Source: a phage
DNA: 64,000 bases
Reading direction: 5' to 3' (one strand)
Sequence record: PZ347775.1
A program made the position numbers and the translations under genes. Shown here one piece after another: positions 15,505 to 64,000 of the stretch; position 1 is the first letter of the stretch, and every line of letters starts with the position of its first letter. The notes under the pieces are model-generated. The model was not told where the DNA came from, searched no databases, and was given only the letters and a program-made list of their open reading frames with translations.

Positions 15505-16107
15505 TTATAGATTAAATCCTTCAAAATCAAGAGTATAGATAGTGTATGTTGAATACTTTTTATACTCGTATCTATCCGCAATTCTAAATACACTTCCAGC
15601 TGGTATCATTACTTCCTGTTCATCTGAAACTAATTCCATATTACGATAACGATGGCTATCCGGAAATTTAAAACTCGGACTATATTCTTTACAACGTAGA
15701 GCTTTTATAGCATACTCCTGAAAATTAAATACCATAGGAGCTTTGAATTCAAAAATAACTTGTGTGTTGTATTCTAATCCAGAAGCAAAATGCAGAGCTA
15801 TATTTTTATCATATGAAGCTGATACTACTTTATCGAATGTAATAATATCAATTCCTTGATTTAACACCTGTTTAGTCTCAACTGGAACACCTCTCCAAAG
15901 AGGTTTATCGTTTGGAACCAAACGAGATTTGATTATTTCATTTAACCAAGAATGATCGTCTGGCTTATTAGTAATACAATGAATTAAAAGTTCAATTTCA
16001 GATAAATTAAATCCTTCAGAAAGTAATTCTTCACGAATAGAAGCACGCACCGATGCATCCATTGATTTTATTTTAAAATCTTTTAATTGCATTGCTGAAT
16101 ATTTCAT
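15505..16107 (-). CDS. modA: ModA ADP-ribosyltransferase
   Basis: 200-aa ORF; R-S-E motifs LWRG / SASYD / DEQEVMIP; T4 ModA length. Confidence 0.9.
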   Translation of the reverse strand: MKYSAMQLKDFKIKSMDASVRASIREELLSEGFNLSEIELLIHCITNKPDDHSWLNEIIKSRLVPNDKPLWRGVPVETKQVLNQGIDIITFDKVVSASYDKNIALHFASGLEYNTQVIFEFKAPMVFNFQEYAIKALRCKEYSPSFKFPDSHRYRNMELVSDEQEVMIPAGSVFRIADRYEYKKYSTYTIYTLDFEGFNL

Positions 16108-16727
16108 TCAACTACCTCAATATCATACACTTTAAATGTTCCAAACGAATCATGTAATTTTTCTTTTGAAATAGAAGTTATTTTATACTTTCCAATTGGA
16201 ATCATCCATTCTTGTTCACGTACAATCATCATTAAGTTATCAGTACGTTCTGAATCTAATCCATCAGTATCTTCATATGTATACTTAAACTCAGTATTAG
16301 GAGAAGAAAGTATAATATCGCTGATATGGTCAGAGTAATTAAAAGCTTTATCAGTTTTTAAGCGAAGTACTATTTCAGTGAAATATTCAGCATAGGAAAA
16401 AGAACACGCTGTATGCAAACTAGTAGTAAATGAATCTACTCTGTTCGTTGAAAACACTTCTCCAACTTGTAAATCTTTAATGAGTTCTTTTGTCGATTTT
16501 GATATACCACGATATAACTGATAAGGTGATTCAGTTAAATGCTTTTTAATGATTTTATTCAACTGCCGATGAAGAGCTTCATTCTTTTTGGCTTCCATAC
16601 ATTGCCAAAGAATTGACTGTTCAAAGTCAGTAAATTTTTCACAGACCTTTTTATACATATCATATTGAAAATCGACACTTTCAGCTTTTATAGATAACTG
16701 TTCAACATCTGCGAGATTAATAATCAT
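16104..16727 (-). CDS. modB: ModB ADP-ribosyltransferase
   Basis: 207 aa from second ATG after GGAGG SD; motifs LYRG / SFTTS / REQEWMIP. Confidence 0.88.
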   Translation of the reverse strand: MIINLADVEQLSIKAESVDFQYDMYKKVCEKFTDFEQSILWQCMEAKKNEALHRQLNKIIKKHLTESPYQLYRGISKSTKELIKDLQVGEVFSTNRVDSFTTSLHTACSFSYAEYFTEIVLRLKTDKAFNYSDHISDIILSSPNTEFKYTYEDTDGLDSERTDNLMMIVREQEWMIPIGKYKITSISKEKLHDSFGTFKVYDIEVVE

Positions 16728-20113: not shown

Positions 20114-20764
20114 TTATTTTTCCTTTCTTATGAAGTTTTCTATCATATGTCTATAGCAGATATTAGGATAACCTGCCTTGACAGCTATTTTATTAAATTT
20201 TGTGCGCTTAGGTCTATTATTATAAACCCATAATTCATAAAGCGCATCATAACTATTCCATATTTCTCCTCGCCTAGGATTTGGTAAACCGTATCGAGGC
20301 GAATTTTTACCGCTAAATCTTCCTTTTCGGGCTTTACTCATATTAGCCTTGGCTTCATCGGATATAATTTTACCTTTATGAGCTAGACGCATTTTGGCTT
20401 TAGTTTCTTCTGGGGTCTTTTTGCCTTTAATCCATGACGGCTTGCCATATCTAGGATTATTTTCACCCGAGAAAAGAACAGAGTTTTGGATTTTAAGAGT
20501 TTCTATTAATCTACTTGTTAATTTAACACCTTTATTATATCGCATTAAATTTACAGCATAATGCAATCCTCTCACATCTGGATATATTTTAGTTAATAAT
20601 CTATGAGCTATAAAATGCTCACGCGCAGTTAACTCAACAAGATTGTTTTTGTCATCTGCTCCTCCTATACATCTAGGAATTATATGATGGCGTTCTTTAT
20701 ATCCGCCAAGATGCCGGCATTTAGCTTTTGTAATTAAAGCCGAGTAAATTTTTTGGTAATTCAC
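20114..20764 (-). CDS. free-standing HNH homing endonuclease with NUMOD-like DNA-binding repeats
   Basis: N-terminal His-Me finger ERHHIIPRCIGGADDKNNLVELTAREHFIAH; repeated basic K-G-K modules; GTG or nearby start with AAGGA SD. Confidence 0.8.
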   Translation of the reverse strand: MNYQKIYSALITKAKCRHLGGYKERHHIIPRCIGGADDKNNLVELTAREHFIAHRLLTKIYPDVRGLHYAVNLMRYNKGVKLTSRLIETLKIQNSVLFSGENNPRYGKPSWIKGKKTPEETKAKMRLAHKGKIISDEAKANMSKARKGRFSGKNSPRYGLPNPRRGEIWNSYDALYELWVYNNRPKRTKFNKIAVKAGYPNICYRHMIENFIRKEK

Positions 20765-57182: not shown

Positions 57183-57668
57183 TTATTCCATTTCTACTAT
57201 ATGCATGTTCTTTTTGCTATCAAAATATATGTTTTTAACTATTAACTCAGAATTAATTGGCAGTAAAAACTCTCTTTCATAATCTACCATACAAAGATTA
57301 TCATAAAGCTTGTTAAGCTTATCATCGTCAGTTTGGCCAGATTCTTCAATTGCGATTAAATTTTCTAAAATGTCAATCATAGCAGTCGAATAGTCAAAAA
57401 CGTTTGCATTTTTTAACACTACTAAAACATTAGTCATATAGCGTTCTGCCGCAAACGTTTCAGCTATATGAGACTCACTGCTAAAGGAAGTTATTCTTTT
57501 AAATTTGATTCTCCTATTAACTTCAAACTTATAAGATAACACTTCCTCTATTGTAAGTCCTCTAAAAAGTGTGTCTTTAATCTCAAGTTTGTCTTTAATG
57601 TAATCATTAACACGCTTATGATTAAAATCATTAATTTTGTTGCCAAGGCATTGCATTAAAATATGCAT
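57183..57668 (-). CDS. ModA/ModB-like R-S-E ADP-ribosyltransferase candidate (161 aa)
   Basis: LFRG / SFSSES / YEREFLLP in ModA-like order and spacing; GAGGAG SD; own early promoter. Confidence 0.6.
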   Translation of the reverse strand: MHILMQCLGNKINDFNHKRVNDYIKDKLEIKDTLFRGLTIEEVLSYKFEVNRRIKFKRITSFSSESHIAETFAAERYMTNVLVVLKNANVFDYSTAMIDILENLIAIEESGQTDDDKLNKLYDNLCMVDYEREFLLPINSELIVKNIYFDSKKNMHIVEME

Positions 57669-58807: not shown

Positions 58808-59265
58808 TCAGCCTTATATTCAATAACAGGACATACTTTAGCTTTACGCGCTTTTAAAAATTCGACGATAATAGATTTCTTTGGTTGAATAGGAGGTAAA
58901 CCTTTATACGCCCTATCAATATTTTCTACATGTAAAGCATAATCCTTTTTCCATTTATAATCTTTATATTTTTCATGCAGTTGTGCAGGAATAACAAATG
59001 AACCGATAATAAGTAAAACAAGCAAAATGGCAAGTATAAATGCCGATGGAATAAGAGTCCATAAACTACCAAAAATAAGCCATTTCTGCATGATTTCTGC
59101 GCAGATGATAGTTAGACCTGCGAGTATAGTACATCCGAAAAAAGAAACAAAAAATGTAGGAATAACAATAGACCAAAAGTATGCACACAGTGTCTTAGGT
59201 CGTTTCCATTCATCATTAAACATTTTGAATAATTTATAGTGCCAAGAGCTTTCATTAATAATCAT
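58804..59265 (-). CDS. membrane protein (153 aa, about three TM helices)
   Basis: Hydrophobic segments; translationally coupled to nucleotidyltransferase. Confidence 0.6.
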   Translation of the reverse strand: MIINESSWHYKLFKMFNDEWKRPKTLCAYFWSIVIPTFFVSFFGCTILAGLTIICAEIMQKWLIFGSLWTLIPSAFILAILLVLLIIGSFVIPAQLHEKYKDYKWKKDYALHVENIDRAYKGLPPIQPKKSIIVEFLKARKAKVCPVIEYKAE

Positions 59266-59267
59266 AA

Positions 59268-59789
59268 TTATCCTTTCATTGAAGGTGTAACGGTTGTTAA
59301 ATACTTAATCATGGCTTCAGCTTCTGATTTTGATAATGAAATTTCTCCATTGTTTTGACGAATAGAAATAAAATCCGGATGACGGTCACCACCAGCTTTT
59401 AAAACACACATATAAGTATCAGTTTCATCTTCAATATTTGAAATGATTGAAGCAGTTCCGCATGAATGTGGTTTTTGATAAATCAATACAGCTTTTCTTC
59501 CACCGTTTGACTGTTCATAAACTTTTAACACATCAAACAAATCGCTTCTTTTATCAATAGCTAAGATGTTGTTTTCATCTTCAATGTTAAATCCTTCGGA
59601 TACTTCATAAAGTGTCACCCATAAATCGCCAATATCGATAGTAGTATTTTCCTTTCCATGACTTTCAAGAGCGTGACAAATTTTCTTAATTTCGTCATAA
59701 CTCATTTTAACAATATCATCTCCTTGAATAAGGAAGATGTCATTTTTAAATTCAACACGAATTAAACCGCTTTCACTTGAAATAAACAT
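59268..59789 (-). CDS. hypothetical protein (173 aa), paralog of next gene
   Basis: Shares GFNIE and C-terminal EAEAMIKYLTTVTPSM block with 59796..60338. Confidence 0.55.
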   Translation of the reverse strand: MFISSESGLIRVEFKNDIFLIQGDDIVKMSYDEIKKICHALESHGKENTTIDIGDLWVTLYEVSEGFNIEDENNILAIDKRSDLFDVLKVYEQSNGGRKAVLIYQKPHSCGTASIISNIEDETDTYMCVLKAGGDRHPDFISIRQNNGEISLSKSEAEAMIKYLTTVTPSMKG

Positions 59790-59795
59790 ATTTCC

Positions 59796-60338
59796 TCACT
59801 TTGAAATCATAGTTGGAATGACAGAATCAAGATAAGTCTTTAGCGCAATAGCTTCATCTTTGGTAAATGTGACAATATGCGCTCGAAAATCATCAATTTG
59901 ACGAATAGTTAAGACATCTCCTTCTTCATAACATTTTGATACATTTAAAACAGTTTCATCATTCTGATCGCACTGATCGCAAGCGTTAGTAATAATAGCA
60001 TTGCAATTTTTAAGCCATTTTAAACTATGTTTTCTTTCATTAGAATAATAAAAATATTTAATGTAAGTTATAAAATTATCCCAATTATTAATTGATAAGC
60101 ATATTGACTCGCTTTCAATATTAAATCCTGGGCATAAAGAATAAAAATGAATTTTATGCTCATCATTAATGCTTACAATTTTATCGGTGTAAGGTTTTTC
60201 AATTTGGGTTAAATGAATAATTTCGCTAGGCGTAAAATATAGCATATCGTCTTCTTGCGTCAAACGATACATATTATTTACTTTTTCTATAGCCAATTCA
60301 CCAAAAAGTGAACTAACTTCTAGTACTAATCGTTTCAT
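59796..60338 (-). CDS. hypothetical protein (about 180 aa), paralog of previous gene
   Basis: C-terminal DEAIALKTYLDSVIPTM; start either ATG 60338 or GTG 60362. Confidence 0.55.
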   Translation of the reverse strand: MKRLVLEVSSLFGELAIEKVNNMYRLTQEDDMLYFTPSEIIHLTQIEKPYTDKIVSINDEHKIHFYSLCPGFNIESESICLSINNWDNFITYIKYFYYSNERKHSLKWLKNCNAIITNACDQCDQNDETVLNVSKCYEEGDVLTIRQIDDFRAHIVTFTKDEAIALKTYLDSVIPTMISK

Positions 60339-62881: not shown

Positions 62882-63070
62882 TTAGTCCTTAGTTAAATTT
62901 TCTAAATATGTTTCTAAATCATTTTCAGCTTTATCGATAGATTTTACTAATTCGTAGTATGTTTCAGCATCTCCATAATCCGAAGCCAATTCAAAAGATA
63001 AATCTCGTTCTAAACTAATAATTTCGCTGATTAAAAATCGTATTTCATTCTTTTGTTCGCGAGTAATCAT
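62882..63070 (-). CDS. hypothetical protein (tk.1 position)
   Basis: 62-aa ORF. Confidence 0.5.
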   Translation of the reverse strand: MITREQKNEIRFLISEIISLERDLSFELASDYGDAETYYELVKSIDKAENDLETYLENLTKD

Positions 63071-63273
63071 AAGGAATTTATATAATCAATAAGTTCTTGT
63101 TCTTTATCGTCGAAATCTTTACACAGTTCTTCGTATTCGTCGGTATTAAAAGGACCGCATTCATCGCAAACTTTTTCCAATTCACTATTTTTATCAATAA
63201 CTTCGTGAATAAGAGAAAACAGTCTGTCTTTTTGTTCTTTACTTAAACTCATAACCATGTAACCTTTAAGCAA
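63067..63273 (-). CDS. hypothetical protein (tk.2 position)
   Basis: 68-aa ORF. Confidence 0.5.
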   Translation of the reverse strand: MLKGYMVMSLSKEQKDRLFSLIHEVIDKNSELEKVCDECGPFNTDEYEELCKDFDDKEQELIDYINSL

Positions 63274-63461
63274 TATTCTTCTACATGTTGTTTACGACCT
63301 TTCTTATCAATAAAGGTATATTCAACGAATGTTCCGATGTAGTCTTTATCTACATCATGTAGACTATTAATTGGGCATTTAGTACGGCAAATGCGTTCCC
63401 ATTGACGAATAATTTCCACTTTATTTTTAGGGTCAAACGGATGTGGGTAATGTGCTTTCAT
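63249..63461 (-). CDS. hypothetical protein (tk.3 position)
   Basis: 70-aa ORF. Confidence 0.5.
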   Translation of the reverse strand: MKAHYPHPFDPKNKVEIIRQWERICRTKCPINSLHDVDKDYIGTFVEYTFIDKKGRKQHVEEYCLKVTWL

Positions 63462-63912
63462 AATCCACCACTATTAAATCAATATCAGGAGTAAACATGT
63501 CGATTAATTTAGAAACCTTATCCCAATCACCGCCAGCAATACCACAACCTATGCGTGGAATGTAAATTACTGGTTTAAACAAAAGGGTTTCTGCCTGTAG
63601 ATTTAATTCTATCATGCAATTTACTAAAGCACCATAATCAAGATTAGGACCCGGTTCGTATTGCGTATACAGGTTATAGCATATACCAAATCCCGTAGGA
63701 CTATGCTTAAAAACAATAGACATATCGCCTAATTTATCACGAGAACCGTATTCGGTAGTGGTTTTATCTATTTCTAAAATTTTGGGATAGGCTCTTGCTA
63801 ATTGACCCGCTACGCCAGAGCCCATTGTGTGGAAGCAATTGCATCCGTGCGCAATAATATTACCTTGAAGAAATAGGGCGACAATATCGCCCTTGATATA
63901 TTTTACAATCAT
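63433..63912 (-). CDS. macrodomain-like protein (ADP-ribose binding/hydrolase candidate)
   Basis: 159-aa ORF; N-terminal GDIVALFLQGNIIAHGCNCFHTMGSGVAG resembles macrodomain signature; tk.4 position. Confidence 0.6.
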   Translation of the reverse strand: MIVKYIKGDIVALFLQGNIIAHGCNCFHTMGSGVAGQLARAYPKILEIDKTTTEYGSRDKLGDMSIVFKHSPTGFGICYNLYTQYEPGPNLDYGALVNCMIELNLQAETLLFKPVIYIPRIGCGIAGGDWDKVSKLIDMFTPDIDLIVVDYESTLPTSV

Positions 63913-64000
63913 CTAGTACTCAATCCTCGATTATAAGAATCTACCAAACGGTCAACCATTGAATGACAAGCGGCTTTATCTTTCTCCTCCGCAACTGAAC

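What the first reader, a model, noticed from the sequence alone, without database searches (positions are those of the whole stretch)
63433..63912. Macrodomain-like protein encoded alongside multiple ADP-ribosyltransferases
The N-terminus GDIVALFLQGNIIAHGCNCFHTMGSGVAG resembles the macrodomain ADP-ribose-binding signature. A macrodomain could reverse ADP-ribosylation by host DarT-like toxins or by the phage's own Mod-like enzymes, including the candidate at 57183..57668.
Basis: partly seen in the sequence, partly recalled or inferred. Interest (0 to 1): 0.55.

Follow-up and report, generated by a model that had tools for sequence, protein, structure and literature searches.

The report
T4-type phage macrodomain (tk.4/adfM)

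Summary
The ORF at 63433..63912 (- strand, 159 aa) is real and is a confident macrodomain. It passes Pfam Macro, the AlphaFold2 model has pLDDT 94, and its best structural matches are TARG1, BT1257, Poa1p, DarG and SCO6735.

The window is a T4-like phage (Tequatrovirus). The gene sits in the T4 tk.4 position (vs, tk.4, tk.3, tk.2, tk.1, tk). T4 has annotated tk.4 as an "A1pp phosphatase" for years. A November 2025 preprint showed tk.4 is the one T4 gene needed to resist DarTG2 and renamed it adfM. Its alternative, erasing marks made by the phage's own Mod enzymes, is not.

Three refinements:
- This allele is only 58% identical to T4/T2 Tk.4, although flanking genes are 85-100% identical. The tested allele is not this one.
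- The family has an invariant Gln where DarG and TARG1 have their catalytic Lys. That matches SCO6735, a Gln-type enzyme shown to cleave thymidine-linked ADP-ribose.
- A 39%-identical relative, Vibrio phage Gary Adpp, is a proven ADP-ribose-1''-phosphate phosphatase. That activity remains a live rival or second function.

Already known; modest interest.

The parts
63433..63912 (-). tk.4/adfM-type macrodomain gene, 159 aa including the stop codon. It is a divergent allele of T4 tk.4.
   Evidence: ORF. Pfam Macro. 58% identity to T4 Tk.4, E=1e-70, in the same position between vs and tk.3. AF2 pLDDT 94.1. Foldseek top matches TARG1, BT1257, Poa1p, DarG and SCO6735.
63805..63891 (-). Residues 8-36 (GDIVALFLQGNIIAHGCNCFHTMGSGVAG), the first ADP-ribose-binding segment. 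It holds family-invariant H22, G23, N25, C26, G33 and A35, plus G8 and G31 (at least 90% conserved).
   Evidence: Invariant columns of the 76-sequence alignment. N25 aligns with SCO6735 Asn27 and the DarG Asn. H22 aligns with Poa1p H23 and SCO6735 H24.
63661..63663 (-). Codon CAA for Gln84. It is invariant in the family and sits at the position of the catalytic Lys80 of DarG and Lys84 of TARG1, and of the essential Gln85 of SCO6735.
   Evidence: Three independent alignments agree: MAFFT, hhalign and the HMMER profile against TARG1. The codon was read. SCO6735 numbering was checked.
63523..63558 (-). Residues 119-130 (PRIGCGIAGGDW), the second glycine-rich, diphosphate-binding loop. P119, G122, G124 and W130 are invariant.
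   Evidence: G122 and G124 align with SCO6735 Gly126 and Gly128. TARG1 Asp125 aligns with Ala126 here.
63909..64000 (-). 3' end of the vs gene (valyl-tRNA synthetase modifier), cut by the window end. Its TGA stop overlaps the tk.4 ATG, which suggests co-transcription and translational coupling.
   Evidence: tblastn of T4 Vs residues 87-115 is 100% identical at 63998..63912. Sequence read.
63249..63461 (-). tk.3 homologue (DUF7202), immediately downstream. It marks the point where DNA identity to T4 returns to 83-95%.

Best explanation
The gene is the positional ortholog, as a deeply divergent allele, of T4 tk.4/adfM. It encodes a stand-alone macrodomain hydrolase of the ALC1/TARG1-like class that acts on the C1'' linkage of ADP-ribose.

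Proposed mechanism: when a host DarT2 toxin ADP-ribosylates thymidines in single-stranded phage DNA and blocks replication, this enzyme removes the ADP-ribose and restores replication.

The active site is not DarG-like. An invariant Gln84, held by Asn25, replaces the catalytic Lys. That matches SCO6735, where Gln85 positions the distal ribose and a water molecule is proposed to start hydrolysis.

Shown here: gene identity, fold and residue pattern. Taken from the literature on relatives: the anti-DarTG2 phenotype (T4 allele) and dT-ADP-ribose cleavage (SCO6735). Inferred: that this allele does the same.
For: - Synteny and homology with T4 tk.4: 58% identity, E=1e-70, same vs/tk.4/tk.3 order, ATGA overlap with vs.
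- All 14 family-invariant residues are kept in both alleles.
- T4 tk.4 was the only HIDEN-SEQ hit against DarTG2, and the knockout is sensitised.
- T2 and T4 lacking adfN, and T4 lacking both adfA and adfN, stay DarTG2-resistant, so another factor was expected (PMC11825919).
- Confident macro fold with TARG1, DarG and SCO6735 among the top matches.
- Gln84 aligns with DarG K80, TARG1 K84 and SCO6735 Q85 in three alignment methods.
- SCO6735, which is Gln-type, cleaves DarT-made dT-ADP-ribose faster than DarG or TARG1 and rescues E. coli from DarT. Its Q85A mutant is dead and N27S nearly dead (PMC9411070).
- A second, unrelated phage macrodomain (PhiKZ gp104) removes DarT2 marks in vitro, which shows the strategy is used by phages (PMC13309987).
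Against: - No enzyme assay exists for any T-even Tk.4. The preprint itself infers the mechanism.
- The tested allele (T4, identical in T2) is only 58% identical to this one, and DNA identity inside the gene falls to 42-58%.
- The protein lacks DarG's catalytic Lys. It scores only 27-28 bits on DarG HMMs, against 133-138 bits for PhiKZ AdfM.
- It also lacks SCO6735's extended Lys-bearing mobile loop, which that paper links to DNA processivity.
- A closer characterised relative than SCO6735, Vibrio phage Gary Adpp (39% identity), is an ADPR-1''-phosphate phosphatase.
Confidence: 0.65

Rival explanations
1. Its main activity is ADP-ribose-1''-phosphate phosphatase (Adpp/Poa1p-like), as the old T4 annotation says. 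It would process soluble ADPR-1''P made by RES-type NAD+ phosphorolysis (aRES defence) or by RNA repair. This is not exclusive of the best explanation, since one C1''-directed site could do both.
For: - Vibrio phage Gary KNV71_gp137 (Adpp) converts ADPR-1''P to ADPR in vitro and is needed for NARP1-AP to beat aRES.
- Adpp is 39% identical to the window protein (E=1e-26) and shares H22, N25, C26, Q84 and both Gly loops.
- Poa1p is among the best sequence and structure matches, and its H23 aligns with invariant H22.
- aRES occurs in E. coli.
- T4 annotates tk.4 as a phosphatase with an A1pp motif.
Against: - Adpp is only useful together with Adps and Namat. In Gary and Liucustia the macro gene sits inside that operon.
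- Here the neighbours are vs and tk.3, and no Adps or Namat homologue is in the 64 kb window. T4 is not known to encode them (my own knowledge; the whole genome was not checked).
- The only phenotype reported for the T4 ortholog is DarTG2-specific.
- T4's own RNA repair (Pnkp plus Rnl1) does not produce ADPR-1''P (my own knowledge).
Confidence: 0.2
2. It is the eraser for the phage's own arginine ADP-ribosyltransferases (Alt, ModA, ModB and the third Mod-like ORF), limiting or timing their modification of host proteins.
For: Three Mod-type genes are in the same window. Writer-eraser pairs are common in ADP-ribosylation systems (general knowledge).
Against: - Alt and ModA marks are on arginine. 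Arginine-ADP-ribose is cleaved by DraG/ARH enzymes, while TARG1/MacroD-type macrodomains cleave esters (PMC8120803).
- The macro gene is 6 kb from the nearest Mod-like ORF and 47 kb from modA/modB.
- The third Mod-like ORF is in 44 records against 315 for this allele, and T4 has tk.4 without it.
- tk.4 was not essential in T4 without DarTG2.
Confidence: 0.05
3. It protects without catalysis: by binding and inhibiting DarT2 directly, by shielding ADP-ribosylated DNA, or by sponging ADP-ribose-derived immune signals.
For: Catalytically dead SCO6735 Q85A still inhibits DarT in vitro, more strongly than DarG K80A or TARG1 K84A. The catalytic Lys of DarG is absent here.
Against: All residues needed for SCO6735 catalysis (Asn, Gln, both Gly) are invariant across a family spanning 38-96% identity. 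That is the pattern expected for an enzyme. The close relative Adpp is an active hydrolase. There is no DarT-binding C-terminal domain like that of DarG; the protein is 159 aa.
Confidence: 0.07

Closest known systems
T4 Tk.4 = AdfM (anti-DarT factor Macrodomain; NP_049723; bioRxiv 10.1101/2025.11.20.689424)
   Same: Same locus between vs and tk.3, with the same ATGA overlap with vs. Similar length (159 vs 155 aa), 58% identity, and all 14 family-invariant residues including Gln84.
   Different: It is a deeply divergent allele. The flanking genes are 85-100% identical, but DNA identity inside tk.4 falls to 42-58%. The second Gly loop here is the family consensus GIAGGDW, whereas T4/T2 have GIGKGNW. 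The anti-DarTG2 phenotype was shown only for the T4 allele.
SCO6735 of Streptomyces coelicolor (PDB 5E3B; PMC9411070) and BT1257 (PDB 2FG1/2AFC)
   Same: Both are stand-alone ALC1-like macrodomains not encoded next to a DarT. They have Gln at the DarG/TARG1 Lys position, plus the matching Asn and the Gly-x-Gly of loop 2. SCO6735 cleaves thymidine-linked ADP-ribose on DNA.
   Different: Only 26-28% identity. The window protein lacks the longer mobile loop with Lys89. It has Gly23 where SCO6735 has Val25, although that contact is through the backbone. It is phage-encoded.
DarG antitoxin macrodomain (PDB 5M3I, 5M31) and PhiKZ gp104 'AdfM' (PMC13309987)
   Same: Same macrodomain class and the same proposed job, removing DarT2 marks from thymidine. 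Foldseek TM 0.74-0.78.
   Different: DarG and PhiKZ gp104 carry the FPTK catalytic Lys, while this family has Gln. The window protein scores 27-28 bits on DarG HMMs against 133-138 bits for PhiKZ gp104. It has only a 23-residue local match to PhiKZ gp104. It has no DarT-binding domain and no adjacent DarT. The two proteins named 'AdfM' are therefore different lineages.
Adpp of Vibrio phage Gary (KNV71_gp137; bioRxiv 10.64898/2026.01.28.702374) and yeast Poa1p (PDB 6LFQ)
   Same: Adpp is 39% identical, E=1e-26, Gln-type, and shares the H-x-C-N-C motif. Poa1p shares the H-x-C-N-C motif and fold.
   Different: Adpp lies inside an Adps-Adpp-Namat NAD+ reconstitution operon, and there is none here. 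Adpp has a 7-residue insertion after the Gln. Poa1p has Ser at that position and a 20-residue insertion.

Membership tests
Macro domain (Pfam PF01661) | Score above the curated gathering threshold over most of the model | tested here: met
   32 bits against a cut-off of 22, profile positions 2-117 of 118.
Macro domain (Pfam PF01661) | Three-layer alpha/beta/alpha macro fold | tested here: met
   AF2 pLDDT 94.1, pTM 0.89. Foldseek probability 1.00 to TARG1, DarG, Poa1p and coronavirus Mac1.
Macro domain (Pfam PF01661) | Conserved Asn after strand 2 and two glycine-rich ADP-ribose-binding loops | tested here: met
   N25, G33, G122 and G124 are invariant; G31, G127 and G128 are at least 90% conserved.
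T4 Tk.4 / AdfM (T-even type) | Positional orthology: between vs and tk.3, upstream of tk | tested here: met
   vs, tk.3, tk.2, tk.1, tk, rI.1 and rI are all found in T4 order.
T4 Tk.4 / AdfM (T-even type) | Full-length sequence homology to T4 Tk.4 | tested here: met
   58% identity over 155 aa with no gaps, E=1e-70.
T4 Tk.4 / AdfM (T-even type) | Required for plating on a DarTG2 host | not testable with these tools
   Shown only for the T4 allele.
DarG antitoxin (NCBIfam NF048014; PADLOC DarG) | HMM score at the equivalog cut-off | tested here: not met
   27.7 bits against a cut-off of 250. PADLOC DarG gives 27.5 bits. PhiKZ gp104 scores 138 and 133 over the same macro region.
DarG antitoxin (NCBIfam NF048014; PADLOC DarG) | Catalytic Lys (Lys80) in an FPTK motif | tested here: not met
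   Gln84 (LYTQ) at that column in MAFFT, hhalign and the HMMER profile.
DarG antitoxin (NCBIfam NF048014; PADLOC DarG) | C-terminal DarT-binding domain and an adjacent darT gene | tested here: not met
   The protein is 159 aa and matches only positions 2-142 of the 338-position model. Its neighbours are vs and tk.3. Three homologues elsewhere also have no DarT neighbour.
SCO6735-type (Gln-type) ALC1-like macrodomain hydrolases | Gln at the Lys80/Lys84 position, with the Asn that positions it and the Gly126/Gly128 pair | tested here: met
   Q84, N25, G122 and G124 are all invariant in the family.
SCO6735-type (Gln-type) ALC1-like macrodomain hydrolases | Extended mobile loop with Lys89 | tested here: not met
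   The loop after Q84 is YEPGPNLDY, 3-4 residues shorter than in SCO6735/BT1257 and without Lys.
SCO6735-type (Gln-type) ALC1-like macrodomain hydrolases | Hydrolysis of thymidine-linked ADP-ribose on ssDNA | not testable with these tools
   Needs an enzyme assay.
Adpp / Poa1p ADP-ribose-1''-phosphate phosphatases | Homology to a proven member | tested here: met
   39% identity to Gary Adpp, E=1e-26. The profile hits Poa1p at E=9e-15.
Adpp / Poa1p ADP-ribose-1''-phosphate phosphatases | Encoded within a NARP1 operon, next to Adps and Namat | tested here: not met
   No Adps or Namat match in the window, in contrast to Gary and Liucustia.
Adpp / Poa1p ADP-ribose-1''-phosphate phosphatases | ADPR-1''P phosphatase activity | not testable with these tools
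   Needs an LC-MS assay as.

The most novel reading that the evidence does not exclude
T-even Tk.4-type macrodomains may be Gln-type C1'' hydrolases with two jobs: removing thymidine-linked ADP-ribose from DNA (anti-DarT2) and dephosphorylating ADPR-1''P (the Adpp activity).

On this reading, two alleles only 58% identical persist at one locus in otherwise near-identical genomes because they differ in substrate or in which DarT variant they counter.

A corollary is that phages recruited two different macrodomain lineages against DarT2: Gln-type Tk.4 and Lys-type PhiKZ gp104. Both are now called AdfM.
Probability: 0.2. Interest if true: 0.5.

Novelty: already known. Interest (0 to 1): 0.3.

Why it matters
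DarTG systems block phage replication by ADP-ribosylating DNA, so knowing which phage genes undo this helps predict host range, for example in phage therapy. This gene is the T-even answer to DarTG2.

The practical points from this analysis are:
- About 315 sequenced phages carry an allele far from the one that was tested.
- The active site is SCO6735-like (Gln), not DarG-like (Lys), so results from DarG or PhiKZ AdfM should not be transferred uncritically.
- The same sequence family contains a proven ADPR-1''P phosphatase. The database labels 'phosphatase' and 'anti-DarT' may both be partly right.

Tried and rejected
- **PHROG assignment:** PHROG 335 'phosphatase' does not separate the lineages. 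T4 Tk.4, Gary Adpp and PhiKZ gp104 all hit it.
- **Co-opted DarG antitoxin:** rejected. DarG HMM scores are low, there is no Lys, no C-terminal domain, and no DarT next to the three homologues looked up elsewhere.
- **Partner of the third Mod-like ART:** rejected on distribution, 44 against 315 records, with T4 lacking that ART.
- **First structure job:** It was rerun without it.
- **Pairwise phmmer to BT1257:** it misplaced the Gln because of a loop-length difference. The profile alignment resolved it.
- **Namat search across phages:** the tblastn gave 189 Escherichia records but does not show whether any is a Tequatrovirus. The absence of NARP1 rests on the window and on my own knowledge of T4.
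- **Not done:** No promoter scan was run, because the window ends 88 nt upstream of the gene.

Full report
**What is there.** A 159-aa ORF runs from an ATG at 63912 to a stop at 63433-63435 on the - strand. The ATG overlaps the TGA stop of the upstream gene (ATGA), and the 3' end overlaps the next ORF by 29 nt. The gene therefore sits in a tightly packed, co-oriented block.

**Where the window comes from.** The 1 kb around the gene matches 695 phage records. The best are Tequatrovirus (T4-like) phages at 99.6% (P922) and 99.2% (F13076). Against T4 the gene order is vs, this gene, tk.3, tk.2, tk.1, tk, rI.1, rI. That identifies the gene as the positional ortholog of T4 tk.4. T4 annotates tk.4 as 'phosphatase; contains A1pp phosphatase motif'. 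Other records call it 'macro domain protein'.

**Is it a macrodomain?** Yes.
- Pfam Macro scores 32 bits against a cut-off of 22, covering nearly the whole model.
- A search of the large protein collection returned 794 relatives. A 76-sequence alignment spanning 38-96% identity has 14 invariant positions: H22, G23, N25, C26, G33, A35, D49, N80, Y82, Q84, P119, G122, G124 and W130.
- A profile of that alignment hits solved macrodomains: BT1257 1e-19, TARG1 7e-17, SCO6735 5e-16, Poa1p 9e-15, DarG 1e-11.
- AlphaFold2 gives pLDDT 94.1 and pTM 0.89.
- Foldseek puts TARG1, BT1257, Poa1p, DarG and SCO6735 on top (probability 1.00, TM 0.67-0.84), followed by viral Mac1 domains.

**What is known about the ortholog.** A November 2025 preprint (HIDEN-SEQ) reports three things. 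tk.4 was the single significant transposon-screen hit when T4 infected a DarTG2 host. A clean knockout sensitised T4 to DarTG2. The authors renamed the gene adfM. They infer enzymatic removal of ADP-ribose from DNA but do not show it. Earlier work had found that T2 and T4 lacking adfN, and T4 lacking both adfA and adfN, stay DarTG2-resistant, and predicted a further factor.

**This allele is not the tested one.** It is 58% identical to T4 Tk.4, and T2 Tk.4 is identical to T4's. The neighbours are far closer to T4:

| Gene | Protein identity to T4 |
|---|---|
| Vs (last 29 residues) | 100% |
| Tk.3 | 91% |
| Tk.2 | 85% |
| Tk.1 | 89% |
| Tk | 99.5% |
| rI.1 | 100% |

. DNA identity is 100% at the vs/tk.4 junction. 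It drops to 42-58% through most of tk.4 and returns to 83-95% in tk.3. Across the phage collection, identity to this protein is bimodal: 319 records at 90% or more, one at 80-90%, and the rest lower. Both alleles keep all 14 invariant residues. The second glycine loop here is the family consensus GIAGGDW, while T4/T2 have GIGKGNW.

**The active site is not DarG-like.** I recalled the Mtb DarG, TARG1 and Poa1p sequences from memory and checked them against the PDB. DarG and Poa1p matched their chains (5M3I, 6LFQ) at 100%. The TARG1 sequence agrees with the 4J5R chain over the aligned region printed. The Taq DarG, BT1257 and SCO6735 sequences were read from tool output.

MAFFT, hhalign and the HMMER profile all place invariant Gln84 (LYTQ) at the catalytic Lys80 of DarG and Lys84 of TARG1 (FPTK / LITK). 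TARG1 Asp125 corresponds to Ala126.

SCO6735 and BT1257 also have Gln at this position. The SCO6735 paper shows that this stand-alone macrodomain cleaves DarT-made thymidine-ADP-ribose more efficiently than DarG or TARG1 and rescues E. coli from DarT. It also shows that Q85A loses all activity and N27S nearly all, and a G128E change reduces it. The window protein has the equivalents N25, Q84 and G124. It lacks SCO6735's longer Lys-bearing mobile loop.

On DarG HMMs the window protein scores about 27-28 bits, against 133-138 bits for PhiKZ gp104.

**A name clash.** An April 2026 paper independently named PhiKZ gp104 'AdfM' and showed that it removes DarT2 marks in vitro. Translating the sequence given in that paper shows gp104 has FPTK and is 35% identical to Mtb DarG. 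It has only a 23-residue local match to the window protein. The two AdfMs are therefore different branches of the same macrodomain class. Neither paper mentions SCO6735.

**A closer characterised relative does something else.** Distant homologues in Vibrio phage Gary and Acinetobacter phage Liucustia lie next to 'ribose-phosphate pyrophosphokinase' and 'nicotinamide phosphoribosyltransferase' genes. A January 2026 preprint identifies exactly the Gary protein (KNV71_gp137) as Adpp. Adpp is an ADPR-1''-phosphate phosphatase that lets the NARP1 NAD+ reconstitution pathway overcome the aRES defence, with in-vitro proof.

Adpp is 39% identical to the window protein (E=1e-26) and is also Gln-type. 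The old 'phosphatase' label is therefore not empty. However, the window has no Adps or Namat, the neighbours here are unrelated genes, and the only phenotype known for the T4 ortholog is DarTG2-specific. I treat the phosphatase activity as a rival primary function (0.2) or a likely side activity.

**The Mod-eraser idea.** modA and modB are in the window at 15508..16727. The ORF at 57183..57668 is a third Mod-like enzyme:
- 30% identity to ModB;
- R36, S61 and E131-x-E133 aligned with the ModA/ModB catalytic motif;
- PHROG 832 'RNA polymerase ADP-ribosylase';
- annotated as such in F13076 and T2.

It occurs in only 44 phage records, against 315 for this tk.4 allele, and T4 has tk.4 without it. 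Alt and ModA modify arginine, a linkage handled by DraG/ARH enzymes rather than TARG1-type macrodomains. I give this idea 0.05.

**Verdict.** The gene is an already known kind: tk.4/adfM, annotated as a macrodomain in many records.

The added value is threefold. This is a deeply divergent allele that has not been tested. The family is Gln-type like SCO6735 rather than Lys-type like DarG and PhiKZ AdfM. And a 39%-identical relative is a proven ADPR-1''P phosphatase. The mechanism for this particular protein remains inferred.

Noticed in passing
window 57183..57668 (-): A third Mod-like ADP-ribosyltransferase (161 aa) lies between an nrdC.10-like AAA gene and the nrdC.11/RlaP nucleotidyltransferase. 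It is 30% identical to T4 ModB, with R36, S61 and E131-x-E133 aligned to the ModA/ModB catalytic residues. It has no Pfam hit but matches PHROG 832. It is present in only 44 phage records, including T2, and is absent from T4.
   Followed up: partly
window 63439..63905 compared with L002 (T4): tk.4 is a sharp mosaic patch. DNA identity to T4 is 100% in vs, falls to 42-58% inside tk.4 and returns to 83-95% in tk.3. The same allele (about 95% protein identity) also occurs in a Dhakavirus record, which suggests exchange between genera.
   Followed up: partly
PhiKZ gp104 sequence from PMC13309987, compared with window 63433..63912: Two unrelated-lineage proteins now carry the name AdfM. T4 Tk.4 is Gln-type. 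PhiKZ gp104 is Lys-type (FPTK), 35% identical to Mtb DarG, and scores 133-138 bits on DarG HMMs against about 27-28 for the window protein.
   Followed up: yes
L011 3504..3980 (Vibrio phage Gary) and L012 3501..3974 (Acinetobacter phage Liucustia): Homologues at 36-39% identity sit inside or next to Adps/Namat (NARP1) operons. The Gary protein is the published ADPR-1''P phosphatase Adpp. Both are Gln-type like the window protein.
   Followed up: yes
window 62882..63070 and 63067..63273 (-): The tk.1 and tk.2 products both match the same domain of unknown function (DUF7438), so they are tandem paralogues. tk.3 matches DUF7202.
   Followed up: no
window 58808..59800, compared with T4 mobD: The T4 homing endonuclease gene mobD has no counterpart at the expected place between nrdC.11 and mobD.1. 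Its only match in the window is a 34%-identical gene at 20132..20764.
   Followed up: no
L004 6001..6459 (Pelagimonas phthalicica chromosome): A bacterial homologue (40% identity) is a stand-alone chromosomal gene with no DarT or NAD-salvage neighbour, resembling the SCO6735 situation.
   Followed up: partly
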